A DNA stretch of 38,740 nucleotides, from the IMG/VR virus record IMGVR_UViG_3300048574_000107, positions 1-38,740 of that record; one strand, given 5' to 3'. The position numbers and the translations under genes were made by a program. The DNA comes from a virus. Taxonomy: Duplodnaviria > Caudoviricetes. Below are positions 4,136-24,681 of this stretch, one piece after another; position 1 is the first letter of the stretch, and each line of letters starts with the position of its first letter. Below the pieces are notes generated by a model. The model was not told the origin of the DNA, did no database searches, and saw only the letters and a list, made by a program, of their open reading frames with translations.

Positions 4136-4516
4136 CTATTTGTCGCATGATGCGCCGAATCTAGGGCGCCACCCCCAAGACGAATCATCCCAATTCCACA
4201 TGATATCCTCGCCCGCCTTCTCTTTCCATACATTCGCTACTGTATCCAATGCGTCGTCCACGCTTAAACGAAACCATTCCGTCTGACCCTTGATAGCGGC
4301 CGCCCCAGGGGCGGCAACAAATCTCAGATTACATAATCTGGCATGGCAGGCAGCCTCTATCGAATAGGCTAGCTGGTGCCGCTGAGTGCAAGCGACGGCC
4401 CACCGTGCGATATGCGCAGGCGAGTGCACTTCTCGAACGCGTGAATTTCCCCAAGTAGACGCGCCAATTTTGCAGAAGCCTCCCCCATCGGCCAGGACAT
4501 AGACACATGCATTCAT
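4136..4516 (-). CDS. GIY-YIG-like (T5orf172/Mug113-type) domain protein
   Basis: CVYVLADGGGFCKIGAS...SRVREV...IEAACHARL...TEWFRL. Confidence 0.75.
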   Translation of the reverse strand: MNACVYVLADGGGFCKIGASTWGNSRVREVHSPAHIARWAVACTQRHQLAYSIEAACHARLCNLRFVAAPGAAAIKGQTEWFRLSVDDALDTVANVWKEKAGEDIMWNWDDSSWGWRPRFGASCDK

Positions 4517-4737
4517 CGTCGCTTCCTTTCCGCTGATGCCAGCATTGCGTCCACATATTCCCTAATCAGGGCCGACCGGCTTGGTCGATCTCCCCGGCTC
4601 GCAATCTCCGCATCGAGTCGCCTAGTCAAATCTGGTGGAAACCGAACGGGAACCAGCGTTTGGTGCTCGTCTTCTGGAATTGATGGTCTACCGGCGCGGG
4701 ACTTACGGGCCATGACGCTGATCTCTGTGTTTTGCAT
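4513..4737 (-). CDS. Ribbon-helix-helix (CopG/Arc) regulator, probably leaderless
   Basis: GRPS...VPVRFPPDLTRRLDAEIASRGDRPSRSALIREYVDAML. ATG 4737 sits at the predicted +1. Confidence 0.8.
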   Translation of the reverse strand: MQNTEISVMARKSRAGRPSIPEDEHQTLVPVRFPPDLTRRLDAEIASRGDRPSRSALIREYVDAMLASAERKRR

Positions 4738-4744
4738 GCCCATT

Positions 4745-4807
4745 TATATACGTAATACAAAAATATTCGTCAAGCCTATTGCATTCCTATTATTTGTGTA
4801 TTACATT
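4745..4807. promoter_or_regulatory. Divergent promoter pair with inverted operator
   Basis: Leftward TTGACG (4773-4768)-N17-TATATA; rightward TTGCAT (4779-4784)-N17-TACATT (4802-4807). GTAATACA (4752-4759) and TGTATTAC (4797-4804) are inverted copies. Confidence 0.7.
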
Positions 4808-4813
4808 AATCAT

Positions 4814-4965
4814 CAAGACGGCCTGAACGGTCCCGACAGCTGACAGAGAAAACAATCCGCAGCTAGGTCTCTAGTAAGACGCCCCGTCACCCAGTCCAAA
4901 TGGGCTCCCACTTAGGCAAGGGAGATACGAAAAACCCCAGAGATGGGGAAGTGCGAAGCTATGGA
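4814..4965 (+). ncRNA. Structured 5' leader RNA of unknown class
   Basis: Stems GACGG/CCGTC, AGCTG/CAGCT, GTCT/AGAC, CCCA/TGGG, CTCCC/GGGAG and CCCCA-GAGA-TGGGG, starting at the predicted +1. Confidence 0.45.
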
Positions 4966-4973
4966 GAAACGAC

Positions 4974-5207
4974 ATGCTTCCAAGAAAAGTAGATTTCACG
5001 CCCATCGTTGGCCCGGCCTTCCGTGCTCTTAGGGCTCACGGATGCACAGCCGCTCGTGGCGTGCAGGCTTACAGGATAACCGCTGGCTACGACGAAGCTG
5101 CATGGTTTCCGGCGACAGTCATTCTCTACGGGACTGTGAAGATTGACGATGCCCGGCCGGTTTTAGCTGATCTTGGCTGGGCCGGCGCAATCAAGATCGA
5201 AAACTAA
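4974..5207 (+). CDS. Hypothetical protein (moron gene 1)
   Basis: 77 aa, GGAG RBS. Confidence 0.7.
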   Translation: MLPRKVDFTPIVGPAFRALRAHGCTAARGVQAYRITAGYDEAAWFPATVILYGTVKIDDARPVLADLGWAGAIKIEN

Positions 5208-5265
5208 TAGGTCGAAACCGGCGCTAATGCCGGTCCTACCGTCAGGCGGTAGATGATGAGACCAA
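5208..5265 (+). ncRNA. Type II hammerhead ribozyme fold (core variant AUGAUGA)
   Basis: GGTC-GAAA-CCGGC-GCTAAT-GCCGG-TC^CTACCG-TCAGG-CGGTAG-ATGATGA-GACC. All three stems and the GUC triplet are present; C3 is replaced by A. Confidence 0.8.
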
Positions 5266-5276
5266 TGGAGACTACG

Positions 5277-5489
5277 ATGAACCTTTTCCGCGCTGGCACG
5301 AAAGATGGCTCGCTAGATCGCAAATACCTTCGGGTGTGCTCGGTCTACAAACTTCTGAAACGCCAGGCTATCGGGCAGGACCGCGCTCTCGAACTTCTGG
5401 CGCAACGCCATTCAGAAATCGAGATGAAAACTTTGCGGGGCACCGTCCAGCTTTGGAAGGCGCACCCCATCCCTGACATGCTGCCATGA
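5277..5489 (+). CDS. Hypothetical protein (moron gene 2)
   Basis: MNLFRAG start with GGAG RBS directly after the hammerhead. Confidence 0.7.
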   Translation: MNLFRAGTKDGSLDRKYLRVCSVYKLLKRQAIGQDRALELLAQRHSEIEMKTLRGTVQLWKAHPIPDMLP

Positions 5490-5627
5490 CGCGGCGTTCG
5501 CTGTACGCAAACCTCGGAAATTGTGTACAGCGCGCCCTGCGCCAAGCAGGAAATAAGCGAGCCCCGCAACGGCGGACACCGTGGCGAGGCTCTTGATCTC
5601 AAACCTTCTGAACAAGGATTGAAACCC

Positions 5628-6650
5628 ATGAGCGAACCTACCACAACAGAGCGATGCCTCGCAATCGGTGTCGGAATACTTATTCTTGCTGCTGCGACCG
5701 ATCTCGCAGTTCGCAAGGCTGGCGGATACGATAGCGATTATTCCCGCCTGCTCATTGCTCTCGCCGCCGGCGTCGTGACCGGTGCTTACATTCTCGGTCG
5801 TGCTTGGTCGGTATCTCGCAAGATCGCAATCGTCATCCTTCTGACGCTTTGCTGCGGCGAAGGCTATAATCTCTGGCAAACTGCAGAACGTGTCATGAGC
5901 ACCAGAGAAGCAGGCCGCGCTCCTAGTCGTGCCGCCCTGAAACAGCACCAGGAAGCCGAAGACGCCCTGAAGACGGCGCAAGGTGCGCAAGTCACGTCTG
6001 CCCGCCTGACGCTCGCCCTCGCAGCTCAGGTGAAAGCCAAAGCCGACTATCAGAAAGAGCTTCGCGAGGGTGGCCGCTGCAAAACCATCTGCGAAGGCTT
6101 GAAAGCTGACGCGGGCAAAGCTGATAAGGAAGTCACGGAGGCGCTTGCCGAAGCCGAAGCCATGAAGGCAACGGCCATCAGCGCTGCCAAGACTGATCTG
6201 GCGGCTCATCCGCTTCCGGCGTCGGGCACAGCATCGTCGGACGAAACGGGCGTTCCTGTTTGGGTCATCGACCTCGTTTCAGCTATGCTGTTGTCTCTTG
6301 GAGCGAATGGACTGGCTGCTGGTCTGATCGCGTTCGGGGCACATTCAACCGGCAAGGATTCCTCGCGAGTTGCCGCCAACGACGCAGACCAAACCGACTT
6401 CCCCGCTTCCGACTTTGATGCCGCAAAAATCAAAGCCCTGGTTGCTGGTGAAATTCCGGGAAAACCTACGCCTCCGAATAAACCCCGTAAGCGTGGCCGG
6501 AAAGCTGACCAGAACGTCATCGACTTCACTCAGAAGTTCCGGGAACGTAATGGCCGGACACCGAGCGGTTCAGAGTTGCGCAGGCAGTTCCCGGCTTTGC
6601 CGGTGTCAACGGCTTATGACTATGCGAATAGAGCAAAAATGGCGGTGTGA
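5628..6650 (+). CDS. Membrane protein: three N-terminal TM segments, coiled coil, fourth TM segment, C-terminal HTH-like domain
   Basis: Start MSEPTT after AAGGA; hydrophobic segments; Ala/Lys/Glu-rich coil; TPSGSELRRQFPALPVSTAYDY. Confidence 0.75.
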   Translation: MSEPTTTERCLAIGVGILILAAATDLAVRKAGGYDSDYSRLLIALAAGVVTGAYILGRAWSVSRKIAIVILLTLCCGEGYNLWQTAERVMSTREAGRAPSRAALKQHQEAEDALKTAQGAQVTSARLTLALAAQVKAKADYQKELREGGRCKTICEGLKADAGKADKEVTEALAEAEAMKATAISAAKTDLAAHPLPASGTASSDETGVPVWVIDLVSAMLLSLGANGLAAGLIAFGAHSTGKDSSRVAANDADQTDFPASDFDAAKIKALVAGEIPGKPTPPNKPRKRGRKADQNVIDFTQKFRERNGRTPSGSELRRQFPALPVSTAYDYANRAKMAV

Positions 6651-6655
6651 ATTTT

Positions 6656-6687
6656 AAGGGCGGCTCTCACGGGCTGCCCTTTTCTCT
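6656..6687 (+). terminator. Terminator closing the moron (possibly bidirectional)
   Basis: AAGGGCGGCT-CTCACG-GGCTGCCCTT-TTCTCT. Confidence 0.7.
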
Positions 6688-15089: not shown

Positions 15090-15795
15090 CGATCTTCACC
15101 GGGGTTGTTTCACGGGAACAAAGTCGCTCACCTATGGAACGGCGCTCCGCCACGTTGTAGCGGATCTCAAGTCCCTTTTTTAGGGGCGGAACTGAGACAG
15201 CGTCCTCAATCGACCATCCGCGGCATAGACGCTCTCGTATTGTCGTGCATCCGACACCGGTTATCTCCGACCATTCCGCCAACAATCGTGTGGACCCGAA
15301 AGCAGTCAACCGAAGCGCGTTACGCTTGTTAAACGATTGGACTTTGTTATCCGCCCATCGACAATTCCCCGGTTGGTAATGGCCGTCGACGTCGATTCTA
15401 TCGAGTGTCATTCCCAAGGGGCGAACCCCCATATCTTCAATGAATGCGGACGGACTGTTCAGCCATCGATCGCATACGCGAATCCCACGGCCTCCCCAAT
15501 TTTTCCAATCGGCTGAGTGCGGATTGTAGCAACGGTTCACCATCGCCCACCAAGAATCAAATGTGGGCCTCCAAGACTTTGGGAAATTTGACGGAGTCCT
15601 CTTGCCATCCCCGAAGGCATAATCACGGCACAGGCCGCACGAATGAAACTCGTCTCGCATGAAAGATGCAGCTAATGGACTGGTAAATCGTCCACATTCG
15701 CAAACACATAACCATCGAACCCGCTTTCCGCGTATAGCAGAAATGGCTGTTAATTTTCCTCGCGTCTCTCCCGCCCGGTCAACGATCTTATGCAT
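15082..15795 (-). CDS. HNH-related homing endonuclease
   Basis: Start MHKIVD overlaps the gcrA stop; WLCVCECG, SWWAMVNRC, WGGRGIRVCDRW, TLDRIDVDGHYQPGNCRWA. Confidence 0.88.
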   Translation of the reverse strand: MHKIVDRAGETRGKLTAISAIRGKRVRWLCVCECGRFTSPLAASFMRDEFHSCGLCRDYAFGDGKRTPSNFPKSWRPTFDSWWAMVNRCYNPHSADWKNWGGRGIRVCDRWLNSPSAFIEDMGVRPLGMTLDRIDVDGHYQPGNCRWADNKVQSFNKRNALRLTAFGSTRLLAEWSEITGVGCTTIRERLCRGWSIEDAVSVPPLKKGLEIRYNVAERRSIGERLCSRETTPVKIDA

Positions 15796-16441
15796 TCTCC
15801 GCCTCCTTAGCAGGCACGGAGACACGGCCAAAAATCGAGTTCTGAGGAGTCGCGACACGAGAAATTCGGGTATGCGGCATGCAATACGGAGATCCCGGAA
15901 TACGCTCCAGCCCACAGAACCCAAAGCCGCTCTGCCTCGGATCACCGATCGGATATTTGCAATGATGCGCCTCTAATTCCGGGAATGTAACTCGGGCAAC
16001 ATCGTCAATTGTCGGAACCGGTATTGGGGCCTTCTCGAAGACCGGCTTTGATTTAACCTGTACTTTCCGGCGTTTATTCGGGGACGGTCGATTGGGTTTT
16101 CGCAATTCGGACTGCAGGGACTGGCGCATGCCATTCCGACAATTCCCTAACTGCATTCCCAGACGACTGATTTTGCCAATGACGGAATTACGGGAAACGC
16201 CAAGCTTTGCAGCAATGACGCTTCCAGAACACCCGGCCTTCGTAAGCGCTATGAGACGCTCTGTGCGCTCGAGTGTCCACGGGCTGTTGTTCGGACGAAC
16301 CAGGCCGAGCTTCCGAGCCCAAAGGCTCGCAGTATCCCGGCAGATGCCAAGCCGCTTTGCAGCCTCATCAATCGTCGGAGCTGTGGCCCAATGCTTTCGC
16401 AGGGCTTCAATCTCGTCATCCGATAGGATTCTCTCGTTCAT
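15788..16441 (-). CDS. gcrA: GcrA-family cell-cycle regulator with an extra N-terminal HTH
   Basis: WTLERTERL...GCSGSVIAAKLGVSRNSVIGKISRLG and LEAHHCKYPIGDP...FGFCG...GSPYCMPH. Confidence 0.92.
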   Translation of the reverse strand: MNERILSDDEIEALRKHWATAPTIDEAAKRLGICRDTASLWARKLGLVRPNNSPWTLERTERLIALTKAGCSGSVIAAKLGVSRNSVIGKISRLGMQLGNCRNGMRQSLQSELRKPNRPSPNKRRKVQVKSKPVFEKAPIPVPTIDDVARVTFPELEAHHCKYPIGDPRQSGFGFCGLERIPGSPYCMPHTRISRVATPQNSIFGRVSVPAKEAENA

Positions 16442-19962: not shown

Positions 19963-20267
19963 TGACAGCTTCTGAAAGCATCGAGAAAGAGACGTTTTCG
20001 GCACGCGATGTCCTTCTATATCTCCGCGCTGAAGCGAAGGAATGGAATGAAGATGTTGATGGTGACATCAGCGATGGAGTGACGCGCGTTTACATCAATC
20101 ACGATATTCGGATCACTGAAGGCTTGCTTGAAGAACTCCTCGATATGGCGGGTATTTCGAAGGCGTGGGACGAGTCCTGCATTCAGGCACTCGATCGCGA
20201 AAACGACGCCGACTTCGAAGCCAGCGAGAAAGCCCATGGAGAGGATCGCTCTCATGAAGGGAAGTGA
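19959..20267 (+). CDS. Acidic hypothetical protein
   Basis: 102 aa, D/E-rich; GGAGG RBS. Confidence 0.65.
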   Translation: MMTASESIEKETFSARDVLLYLRAEAKEWNEDVDGDISDGVTRVYINHDIRITEGLLEELLDMAGISKAWDESCIQALDRENDADFEASEKAHGEDRSHEGK

Positions 20268-20463
20268 GGCCTCCAGATGGCATCCGATTGGGTGGGCAAA
20301 TTTCAGCTCGAACGGGCTTGGCGTCGATCATTGGTTTGGCGCCGACGGCATATCGCTTTGCCGCCGCCATAGGAACCACACCTACAACATCCTCTCGAGA
20401 GAGACGGCCAGCGCCTGCGTCACGTGTCAACGACGCCTCTCTAAAGAACGGGAGGGGGCGTAG

Positions 20464-20757
20464 ATGGTGCACCATATCTTGCAAGCTGAAGCAGATCGCG
20501 TGTTCACACCGCAAGACCGTGCGGAAGCGAAGAAGCGCAAAGGCAATTCGGCTCAGATCGCACTCGATCTCGTGAATGAAAAGCAAAAGTTCCGGCGCAA
20601 CGTCACTAAGTGTGCGCTGCATTGGGGAGAATACAACTGCGCCTCCGGAACTCTCACTGATTTAGCGCTCTGGGATGTTTACGCCACCCGCGCGCAACTC
20701 AACCTCAGCAAGATTTTGAAGCTGGAAGACAAGCTTGAAAGGGCTCTCGATCAATGA
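20464..20757 (+). CDS. Hypothetical phage protein
   Basis: 97 aa, GGAGG RBS. Confidence 0.65.
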   Translation: MVHHILQAEADRVFTPQDRAEAKKRKGNSAQIALDLVNEKQKFRRNVTKCALHWGEYNCASGTLTDLALWDVYATRAQLNLSKILKLEDKLERALDQ

Positions 20758-21263
20758 GCGTCAGAATCAATCCGTGCTTTGGATGCCCGCTCAGCAAAGG
20801 TTGCGAGCAGAAGTCCGATTACAAGCGCCGCGTTTCCGGACTCGGGCTTCGCTCGGCCACCTTCAGATGCGCGAAGCTATCAGAAGCACTGTCGGCAGGC
20901 ACCCGGATTGAGATCGCGGCACCAGTCCGAGATTACACGCAGAGCGACGGTGTTGAGTTCGAAATCATTCGCGCCTGGGTTCCGGCAACGATTGTTGCGA
21001 GCAAGGGCCACGAGTTCGCCTGCATCGTCGACCGAGAGCCGCTACTTAGAGCGATGCGCAATCGCGGCGATGTCGAAACTGACGTCGATAAGGTTCGCTT
21101 CCGCAAATACATGAGACATGCGCGCATCGTCCGCTTTCTCGATGAGCCCAAGGCGAAGTTGTGCGCTTACGGCAATCCAATCCTTGCTGACGGACGACAT
21201 GACGTTCGGGAAGGCCAGTGCGACTGCTCGGCTCTCTCCTATGGCTTGGAGGCGGCCGAATGA
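20754..21263 (+). CDS. Cys-rich hypothetical protein
   Basis: CFGCP...C...C; ATGA coupled. Confidence 0.65.
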   Translation: MSVRINPCFGCPLSKGCEQKSDYKRRVSGLGLRSATFRCAKLSEALSAGTRIEIAAPVRDYTQSDGVEFEIIRAWVPATIVASKGHEFACIVDREPLLRAMRNRGDVETDVDKVRFRKYMRHARIVRFLDEPKAKLCAYGNPILADGRHDVREGQCDCSALSYGLEAAE

Positions 21264-23979: not shown

Positions 23980-24681
23980 ATGAAAGCTCTTACTCTTGCT
24001 ATCTCTGCCGCTGCTTTGATCGCCGCATCACCTGTTGCAGCTCAGGACTATAAGTGGACTGGAGCTTATGCCGGTGCAAACCTCGGATATATCTGGGGCG
24101 ATGCCACGACGACGGGCGATGTAGCTGATTGGGGAAATGATCCCAAGTTCATCGGCCCTTTCAACAACAGCGTTGGCGGCTTCGTCGGCGGCGGCACGCT
24201 GGGATACAATCTCCAGGTTGATCGCGTCGTTCTGGGCGTCGAGGCAGACCTCGATTATGCCGATCTCAGCGGCAACATCGATACGCCGTCGTCTCAATCG
24301 GGAAATCACCAGGACATCGCCCTGAGCGGCGGGTTCCTCGGCACCATCACCGCTCGCGCTGGTGTTCTTATTGATCCAGCGACGCTCATCTATGCCAAAG
24401 GCGGCCTTGCACTCTACACGGGAGAAGCAACGCAGACGACGACGGCTAAGGGCTACGAGACGCATGGAACGAACACGTTCACGGGATTCGTTGTCGGCGG
24501 CGGCATCGAGCGCAAGCTGACCGAGAACATCAGCATCAAGCTTGAATATGCGCACTTCGACTTCGGAACCGAGACCGGCGATCAGACATCAATCGCTGAT
24601 GATCCGATCGGGCACGTCTACCACAACCACACGAGCGTTACGGCGGATTCCGTCCGTGCTGGCCTGAACTATCGGTTCTGA
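23980..24681 (+). CDS. Outer-membrane beta-barrel protein (Omp25/RopB-like)
   Basis: Signal peptide, WTGAYAGANLGY, GGGTLGYNLQ, LGVEAD, LIYAKGG, terminal VRAGLNYRF. Confidence 0.92.
   Translation: MKALTLAISAAALIAASPVAAQDYKWTGAYAGANLGYIWGDATTTGDVADWGNDPKFIGPFNNSVGGFVGGGTLGYNLQVDRVVLGVEADLDYADLSGNIDTPSSQSGNHQDIALSGGFLGTITARAGVLIDPATLIYAKGGLALYTGEATQTTTAKGYETHGTNTFTGFVVGGGIERKLTENISIKLEYAHFDFGTETGDQTSIADDPIGHVYHNHTSVTADSVRAGLNYRF

What the first reader, a model, noticed from the sequence alone, without database searches (positions are those of the whole stretch)
5208..5265. Type II hammerhead ribozyme with a non-canonical C3A core
Seen in sequence: stems I-III, GAAA and a GUC cleavage triplet (predicted cut at 5235/5236) are all intact. 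The fold sits exactly between a stop codon and the next RBS. The core reads AUGAUGA instead of CUGANGA. Established: C3 pairs with G8 in the active fold, so A3 should impair cleavage. It is either a slowed or tuned variant, a recently inactivated ribozyme, or a sequencing error.
Basis: partly seen in the sequence, partly recalled or inferred. Interest (0 to 1): 0.75.

Follow-up and report, generated by a model that had tools for sequence, protein, structure and literature searches.

The report
Phage hammerhead ribozyme with crippling mutation
This is an ordinary self-cutting RNA motif (type II hammerhead) between two small genes of a wastewater phage, and this copy carries a real but local one-letter change in its catalytic core that likely cripples it, while the same phage from five other studies has the normal letter.

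Summary
In detail: a type II hammerhead at 5210-5263, cut site 5235/5236, core AUGAUGA with G8 unchanged, so the C3-G8 pair is broken without compensation. It belongs to a common phage subfamily (62.8 bits against my own model) that includes the tested Bcep176 ribozyme (PMC7151607). The A is probably not a sequencing error: two runs of one study carry it at depth about 12. It is a minority allele: the same phage has C in 5 of 6 studies with coverage. In IMG/VR about 610 stretches have C3, 4 have U3, none has A3, and breaks at the essential G5 are about as rare (2). A sister strain has a different break (C11.1A), and other strains replace the module. Best reading (0.72): a recent loss-of-function mutation drifting in an accessory early-gene module, not a tuned variant. 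A slow or metal-dependent allele stays possible (0.14); cleavage was not tested. The scan has noted hammerhead core variants before on other DNA. Low interest.

The parts
5210..5263 (+). Type II hammerhead fold (stem II open, stems I and III closed)
5233..5236 (+). GUC triplet; predicted cleavage between 5235 and 5236
   Evidence: sequence; site by hammerhead consensus
5253..5253 (+). Core position 3: A in the window and in runs X4, X6 (study P3); C in runs X1, X3, X7, X8, X13 (five studies)
5253..5259 (+). Core AUGAUGA; G8 at 5258 unchanged, so no compensating pair
5209..5209 (+). A just 5' of stem II, kept in 202 of 203 family members; likely partner of the loop I U in a tertiary contact (inferred)
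5242..5242 (+). U in loop I, kept in 185 of 187 members with a 17-nt stem I region
5213..5213 (+). C11.1; A in run X7 (one contig, depth 8.3), a second, independent break of a conserved pair
4974..5207 (+). ORF1, 77 aa, no Pfam or PHROG family; this exact protein is on 97 contigs
5267..5270 (+). Shine-Dalgarno-like GGAG of ORF2
   Evidence: sequence
5277..5489 (+). ORF2, 70 aa, conserved small protein of unknown function (95 homologues, most 69-71 aa)
5628..6650 (+). ORF3, about 340 aa, no Pfam family; probably the last gene of the same transcript (start codon inferred)
4779..4807 (+). Promoter-like TTGCAT-17-TACATT, found by eye; not reported by the consensus scan
6656..6681 (+). Terminator-like hairpin after ORF3

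Best explanation
This is a member of a common phage type II hammerhead subfamily whose copy in this phage lineage has picked up a C3-to-A point mutation that likely slows self-cleavage far below a useful rate, and the allele likely persists by drift in an accessory gene module. In the majority (C) allele the RNA would cut itself at 5235/5236, splitting the likely ORF1-ORF2-ORF3 transcript into a 5' piece ending in the stem III hairpin and a 3' piece that starts with a 5'-OH and the stem I hairpin, 31 nt ahead of the ORF2 ribosome-binding site (inferred from the family, not shown here). In the A allele the three stems still form, but A3 cannot make the Watson-Crick pair with G8 that builds the active site, so the message would stay largely uncut. 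Shown: fold, family, allele distribution, family-wide rarity. Inferred: transcription, cleavage by the C allele, loss of cleavage in the A allele, neutrality.
For: Alleles: of 8 runs laid (of 24 listed), 7 cover the site; 5 have C (studies P1, P2, P4, P5, P6) and 2 have A (both P3). Family: about 610 IMG/VR stretches match with C3 (estimate from 13 of 64 parts); the full scan for non-C gave 10 stretches, of which 4 fold (3 distinct, all U3, which keeps a G-U wobble) and the one A match does not fold. Control positions: G5 changes 2 real of 2, G8 changes 0 real of 1, C11.1 changes 3 real of 5, all U. So A3 is no more common than breaks at an essential base. Parallel case: L341 has a G5 change in a ribozyme otherwise almost identical to canonical L197. 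47 distinct neighbouring model hits not used to fetch their loci: 40 canonical, 0 changed at C3, 1 U4C, 4 with a U inserted after A9, 2 half ribozymes. The module looks dispensable: X7 carries C11.1A plus a change in the ORF2 Shine-Dalgarno, X1 has a variant replacing 4849-5486, X8 a joint from 4965 to 5546, X3 an alternative upstream sequence joined at 5206, and an ORF1 frameshift variant is on 3 contigs. ORF2 homologues in 6 of 6 viral loci have no hammerhead by descriptor or model. Biochemistry: in a pairwise mutational scan all single and double mutants in the CUGA region had low activity except the C-G to G-C swap (PMC9901934, passages); the C3-G8 pair is described as confirmed by two studies (PMC3884650, passages).
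Against: No cleavage assay and no RNA data: the only raw-read run laid (X21, about 1 in 100 of it read) had 0 reads on the stretch. The A allele is the only allele assembled in both P3 runs and sits on different flanking haplotypes, so it is not fleeting. Other A3 ribozymes of the subfamily exist (L337; L316 = L331) and G3 ones too (L323; L324, L330) among 40 metagenome matches; no denominator was obtained there. The same subfamily has a tested natural core variant that works with Mn2+ (Bcep176 A6C, PMC7151607). Contigs drop rare variants and do not phase haplotypes. The mutational scan used a type III ribozyme and I saw no number for C3A itself.
Confidence: 0.72

Rival explanations
1. Slow or conditional variant: A3 lowers but does not abolish cleavage, or makes it depend on a metal such as Mn2+, and the phage uses the partial processing.
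For: Precedent in the same subfamily: Bcep176 A6C gives 0.0041 per minute at 1 mM Mg2+ and 0.31 at 1 mM Mn2+ (PMC7151607 Table 1). All other core bases, three stems and the conserved 5' A and loop U are intact. A3 recurs in two other distinct family members. Earlier scan notes describe phage arrays lacking C3-G8 (unchecked).
Against: Not conserved in the phage's own population (5 of 6 studies have C); 0 A3 against about 610 C3 in IMG/VR; no compensation at G8; no difference in predicted fold or ribosome-site exposure between alleles.
Confidence: 0.14
2. Selected off-switch: losing the cut is favoured in some hosts or plants because it changes the output of ORF1 or ORF2, so independent breaking alleles rise locally.
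For: Two different breaks in one phage among 6 studies (A3 in P3, A11.1 in P4), more than the 1-2% family rate would suggest; the A allele is the only one assembled in X4 and X6.
Against: The window was picked for having A3 and P3 may be its source study, so only the X7 allele is an independent hit (1 of 5 studies, one contig, depth 8.3); relaxed selection predicts the same pattern, and whole-module loss is also seen.
Confidence: 0.09
3. Sequencing or assembly error at 5253.
For: Single-base difference from the majority; the window's own reads could not be seen; P3 may be the source study.
Against: Two separate runs carry A at depth 12.8 and 12.3, and both differ from the window at five or more other positions. 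A 78-aa ORF2 call that needs a start codon at 5253 is on 1 further contig, which may come from the same study.
Confidence: 0.04

Closest known systems
Hammerhead of Burkholderia phage Bcep176 (Perreault 2011, PMC3088659; Naghdi 2020, PMC7151607)
   Same: Same subfamily by its printed sequence: A before a GGUC stem II strand, GAAAC, GUC site, 17-nt stem I region with the GUNANGC loop, phage intergenic position, one natural core substitution.
   Different: Bcep176 changes A6 to C and was shown to cleave with Mn2+; here C3 is changed to A, activity is untested, and sister phages show the change is a minority allele.
Type II hammerheads between phage and prophage genes, Rfam RF02276 (Perreault 2011)
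   Same: Topology, core apart from position 3, position between a stop codon and a ribosome-binding site. Canonical members of this subfamily hit RF02276 at 20-40 bits.
   Different: The window copy is not reported by RF02276; no loop I / 3' tail pseudoknot of 4 or more pairs (best 3); single copy in this genome piece rather than an array.
Natural 3-8 covariants U3-A8 (Perreault 2011)
   Same: Change at core position 3.
   Different: Those restore the pair; here G8 is unchanged, leaving an A-G mismatch.

Membership tests
Hammerhead ribozyme, type II | Three-way junction with stems I and III closed and stem II open | tested here: met
Hammerhead ribozyme, type II | G12 A13 A14, A15.1-U16.1 pair, H17, G10.1-C11.1 pair | tested here: met
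   5214-5217, 5234, 5235, 5260/5213
Hammerhead ribozyme, type II | U4 G5 A6 N7 G8 A9 | tested here: met
   5254-5259
Hammerhead ribozyme, type II | C3, or another base that pairs with position 8 | tested here: not met
   A3 with G8 in the window; met by the majority allele of the same locus. The window copy is filed as a mutant allele of a member, not as a working ribozyme.
Hammerhead ribozyme, type II | Covarying stems in homologues | tested here: met
   10 of 12 pairs in stems I and III change on both sides across 67 sequences; stem II and two stem III pairs were fixed by the search pattern, and rows were pre-filtered for stems, so the percentage paired is inflated
Hammerhead ribozyme, type II | Self-cleavage at H17 | not testable with these tools
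   No assay; no RNA reads on the stretch
Rfam RF02276 Hammerhead_II | Score at or above the gathering threshold of 37 bits | tested here: not met
   No hit at the locus; only 1 of 20 canonical subfamily loci reaches it either
Rfam RF02276 Hammerhead_II | Pseudoknot between loop I and the 3' tail (in a majority of type II, per PMC3088659) | tested here: not met
   Best complementarity 3 nt in the window; 4 or more in 20 of 187 subfamily members
Bcep176-like subfamily (my grouping, no formal name) | A 5' of stem II, 17-nt stem I region, U at loop position 7 | tested here: met
   A5209, 5236-5252, U5242
Conditional core variants such as Bcep176 A6C | Cleavage rescued by a specific metal or condition | not testable with these tools
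   Needs an in vitro assay

The most novel reading that the evidence does not exclude
A wastewater phage population segregates on and off alleles of an mRNA-processing ribozyme: independent core changes (C3A, C11.1A) switch off or retune the cut and are favoured locally, with A3-G8 possibly a slow, metal-dependent core. That would be a natural allele pair showing that phage hammerhead cleavage is a selected expression dial.
Probability: 0.15. Interest if true: 0.6.

Novelty: new member of a known kind. Interest (0 to 1): 0.2.

Why it matters
As it stands it matters little: a known ribozyme class in its usual setting, with one damaged allele. The modest value is practical. What phage hammerheads do is still described as open (PMC6765202 and PMC6155905, passages), and this locus offers two natural alleles one base apart in a phage that is common in wastewater, so RNA data from C-allele and A-allele samples would test cleavage in vivo and its effect on the flanking genes.

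Tried and rejected
Rfam, whole window at gathering score and 4700-5700 by E-value: no hammerhead; the weak ctRNA and CRISPR-repeat matches at 5546-5626 are below threshold and were set aside. BLAST of 4750-5600 against 50,697 GenBank phages: no match. The genome search does not draw relatives for a virus record. ORF1 relatives in IMG/VR: one weak 16-residue match, not used. GTDB scan for non-C at position 3: 72 matches, 71 fail the stem test, 1 doubtful (L285, A3, 23 bits, lacks the 5' A). Idea that A5253 matters as a new start codon: rejected, in-frame ATGs at 5256 and 5265 exist in both alleles and homologues start at the 5277 position. Idea that the allele is a folding switch: rejected, stem and ribosome-site probabilities are similar for both alleles; stem II itself ranges from 0.05 to 0.7 with the window folded. 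Leader 4812-4970 is not unusually stable, z -1.03. ORF2 function: no Pfam or PHROG hit; Atlas best 0.89, unnamed clusters. Literature: searches found no paper giving a natural or measured C3A hammerhead ('C3A' in PMC4889925 is a construct name); most older hammerhead kinetics papers are probably not in this library, and the type II alignment of Perreault 2011 (pages 982-998 of Dataset S1) lies beyond the 300 pages held, so a printed C3A example cannot be excluded. Figures S6 and S7 of that paper were read as scrambled text only.

Full report
Observation. Stem II pairs 5210-5213 with 5260-5263, GAAA follows at 5214-5217, stem III and stem I have 7 pairs each, the triplet GUC ends at 5235, and the core at 5253-5259 reads AUGAUGA with G8 unchanged. 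It is the minimum-energy structure of 5200-5275 (z -2.74; 2 of 200 shuffles as good). A descriptor allowing any base at position 3 finds only this site in the window and none in 300 simulated windows. ORF1 stops at 5207; GGAG at 5267 and ATG at 5277 follow.

Setting. The window is a virus record, linear, estimated 72% complete. It encodes a small terminase subunit and replication initiator and DnaB, GcrA, an S24/HTH repressor, ERF, YqaJ and an integrase, which points to a temperate phage of an alphaproteobacterium (host inferred from GcrA). The ribozyme lies in a short plus-strand unit running against its neighbours: a promoter-like site at 4779-4807 (seen by eye), ORF1, ribozyme, ORF2, ORF3, terminator-like hairpin at 6656-6681. 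Runs that hold the stretch are mostly wastewater or sludge metagenomes.

Family. Pattern scans of IMG/VR gave 84 and 125 loci. Of 215 distinct cores in the first 225 loci, 203 had stems I and III of at least 4 pairs; 12 were dropped. Among the 203, position 3 is C in 200 and U in 3; an A precedes stem II in 202; 187 have a 17-nt stem I region, 185 of them with U at loop position 7; 183 have a stop-codon triplet in the 10 nt before and 140 a ribosome-site-and-start pattern within 35 nt after (no shuffled control for these two). A model built from 67 equal-length members scores the window site at 62.8 bits against 13.9 for the next site. Stems I and III covary (10 of 12 pairs with changes on both sides; stem II was fixed by the pattern and rows were pre-filtered for stems). 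Canonical members hit Rfam RF02276 in 15 of 20 loci, 1 above threshold, which explains Rfam's silence here. The Bcep176 ribozyme printed in PMC7151607 Table 2 has the same 5' A, stem II strand and loop I pattern; its consensus-core form cleaved during transcription in that paper. The conserved 5' A and loop U likely form the stem I-stem II tertiary contact (inference; a trans Hoogsteen A-U contact in hammerheads is recalled and mentioned in passages of PMC6155905).

Is the A real? Eight of 24 listed runs were laid. Seven cover 5253. X1, X3, X7, X8 and X13, from five studies, have C. X4 and X6, two samples of study P3, have A at depths 12.8 and 12.3; both differ from the window at 5509-5521, X4 also at 5321 and X6 at 4942-4951. 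X21 had no reads. So A is very probably a true allele, local to one of six studies. P3 may be the window's source study, and contigs neither show rare variants nor guarantee phasing.

Is the A special? In IMG/VR the same pattern gives about 610 stretches with C3 (estimated from 13 of 64 parts). The complete scan for non-C gave 10 stretches: 4 fold, all U3, and the single A match does not; records near the window's own may be left out. The control scans gave 2 real G5 changes, 0 real G8 changes and 3 real C11.1 changes, all to U. One G5 case, L341, is nearly identical to canonical L197, the same picture as here. Among 47 hand-listed neighbouring hits (seed matches and duplicates left out) none was changed at C3. 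In the metagenome scan for purines at position 3, 6 of 40 matches are real folds: A3 in L337 and in L316 = L331, G3 in L323 and in L324/L330 (L316 and L331 have a bulged stem III and score 52.6 bits). In GTDB 1 of 72 matches is a doubtful fold. A3 thus appears as an occasional tip-level change, like breaks at other essential bases.

The module looks accessory. X7 has C11.1A and a change in the ORF2 Shine-Dalgarno; X1 holds a variant that replaces 4849-5486 with 189 other bases; X8 shows a joint from 4965 to 5546; X3 shows a different upstream sequence joined at 5206. An ORF1 frameshift variant is on 3 contigs. Six ORF2 homologues in other phages have no hammerhead nearby.

Mechanism. For the C allele, self-cleavage at 5235/5236 would split the message between ORF1 and ORF2; clustered prophage hammerheads were shown to cut such transcripts in vitro and in E. 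coli (PMC3088659, Results, Discussion part 1 and supporting legends read). The effect on stability or translation of the pieces is a suggestion in the literature, not a result (PMC6765202, passages). For the A allele, secondary structure is unaffected but the C3-G8 pair is lost. [quoted passage not shown] I found no measured value for C3A; older kinetics papers reporting large drops for C3 changes are recalled, not read.

Rivals. A slow or metal-dependent allele has a precedent in Bcep176 A6C (PMC7151607, passages, tables and supplement) but no support from conservation here (0.14). A selected off-switch is suggested by two different breaks among six studies, but only the X7 break is independent of how the window was chosen (0.09). 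Error is unlikely (0.04).

Verdict. A new member of a known, common phage ribozyme subfamily, caught in a damaged minority allele. Not a new core type. Interest 0.2; the allele pair is a handy natural test of what these ribozymes do.

Noticed in passing
window 4779-4960: Near-identical phages swap the DNA just left of 4808; several alternative sequences carry their own -35/-10-like boxes while the leader from 4808 on is kept. Looks like an exchangeable promoter module beside the ribbon-helix-helix gene at 4513-4743.
   Followed up: partly
window 5206 (run X3): An assembly branch starts exactly at the ribozyme's 5' edge: another strain has a different upstream sequence joined to the same ribozyme, as if the ribozyme marks a gene-cassette boundary. 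Half ribozymes in L009:2177-2217 and L020:2887-2940 fit recombination at these motifs.
   Followed up: no
L015 and L055: Seven and nine model hits to this hammerhead subfamily within 5.1 and 4.3 kb.
   Followed up: no
L029:1072-1130 and 1348-1406, L034:1062-1122, L005:1861-1929: Family members with a U inserted between A9 and G10.1.
   Followed up: no
L085, L087, L094: U3 (wobble with G8) is shared by two related ribozymes that differ in stem III and in the downstream gene, so U3 persisted through divergence and may be tolerated.
   Followed up: partly
family-wide, window 5209 and 5242: The A 5' of stem II (202 of 203) and the loop I U (185 of 187) are nearly invariant in a subfamily that mostly lacks the type II pseudoknot; a likely single-pair tertiary contact, and a subfamily that Rfam RF02276 mostly scores below threshold.
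   Followed up: partly
window 5490-5627: Spacer between ORF2 and ORF3 with hairpin-like inverted repeats that varies strongly between strains; weak sub-threshold ctRNA match on the minus strand.
   Followed up: no
window 23980-24681 (+) and 15788-16441 (-): Phage-borne outer-membrane beta-barrel protein (PF13505) and a GcrA cell-cycle regulator homologue (PF07750).
   Followed up: no
window 20113-20622 (-) and 20754-21263 (+): Two 169-aa ORFs of equal length facing away from each other, with mirrored 111-aa ORFs on the opposite strands, suggesting a large inverted duplication; no Pfam family.
   Followed up: no
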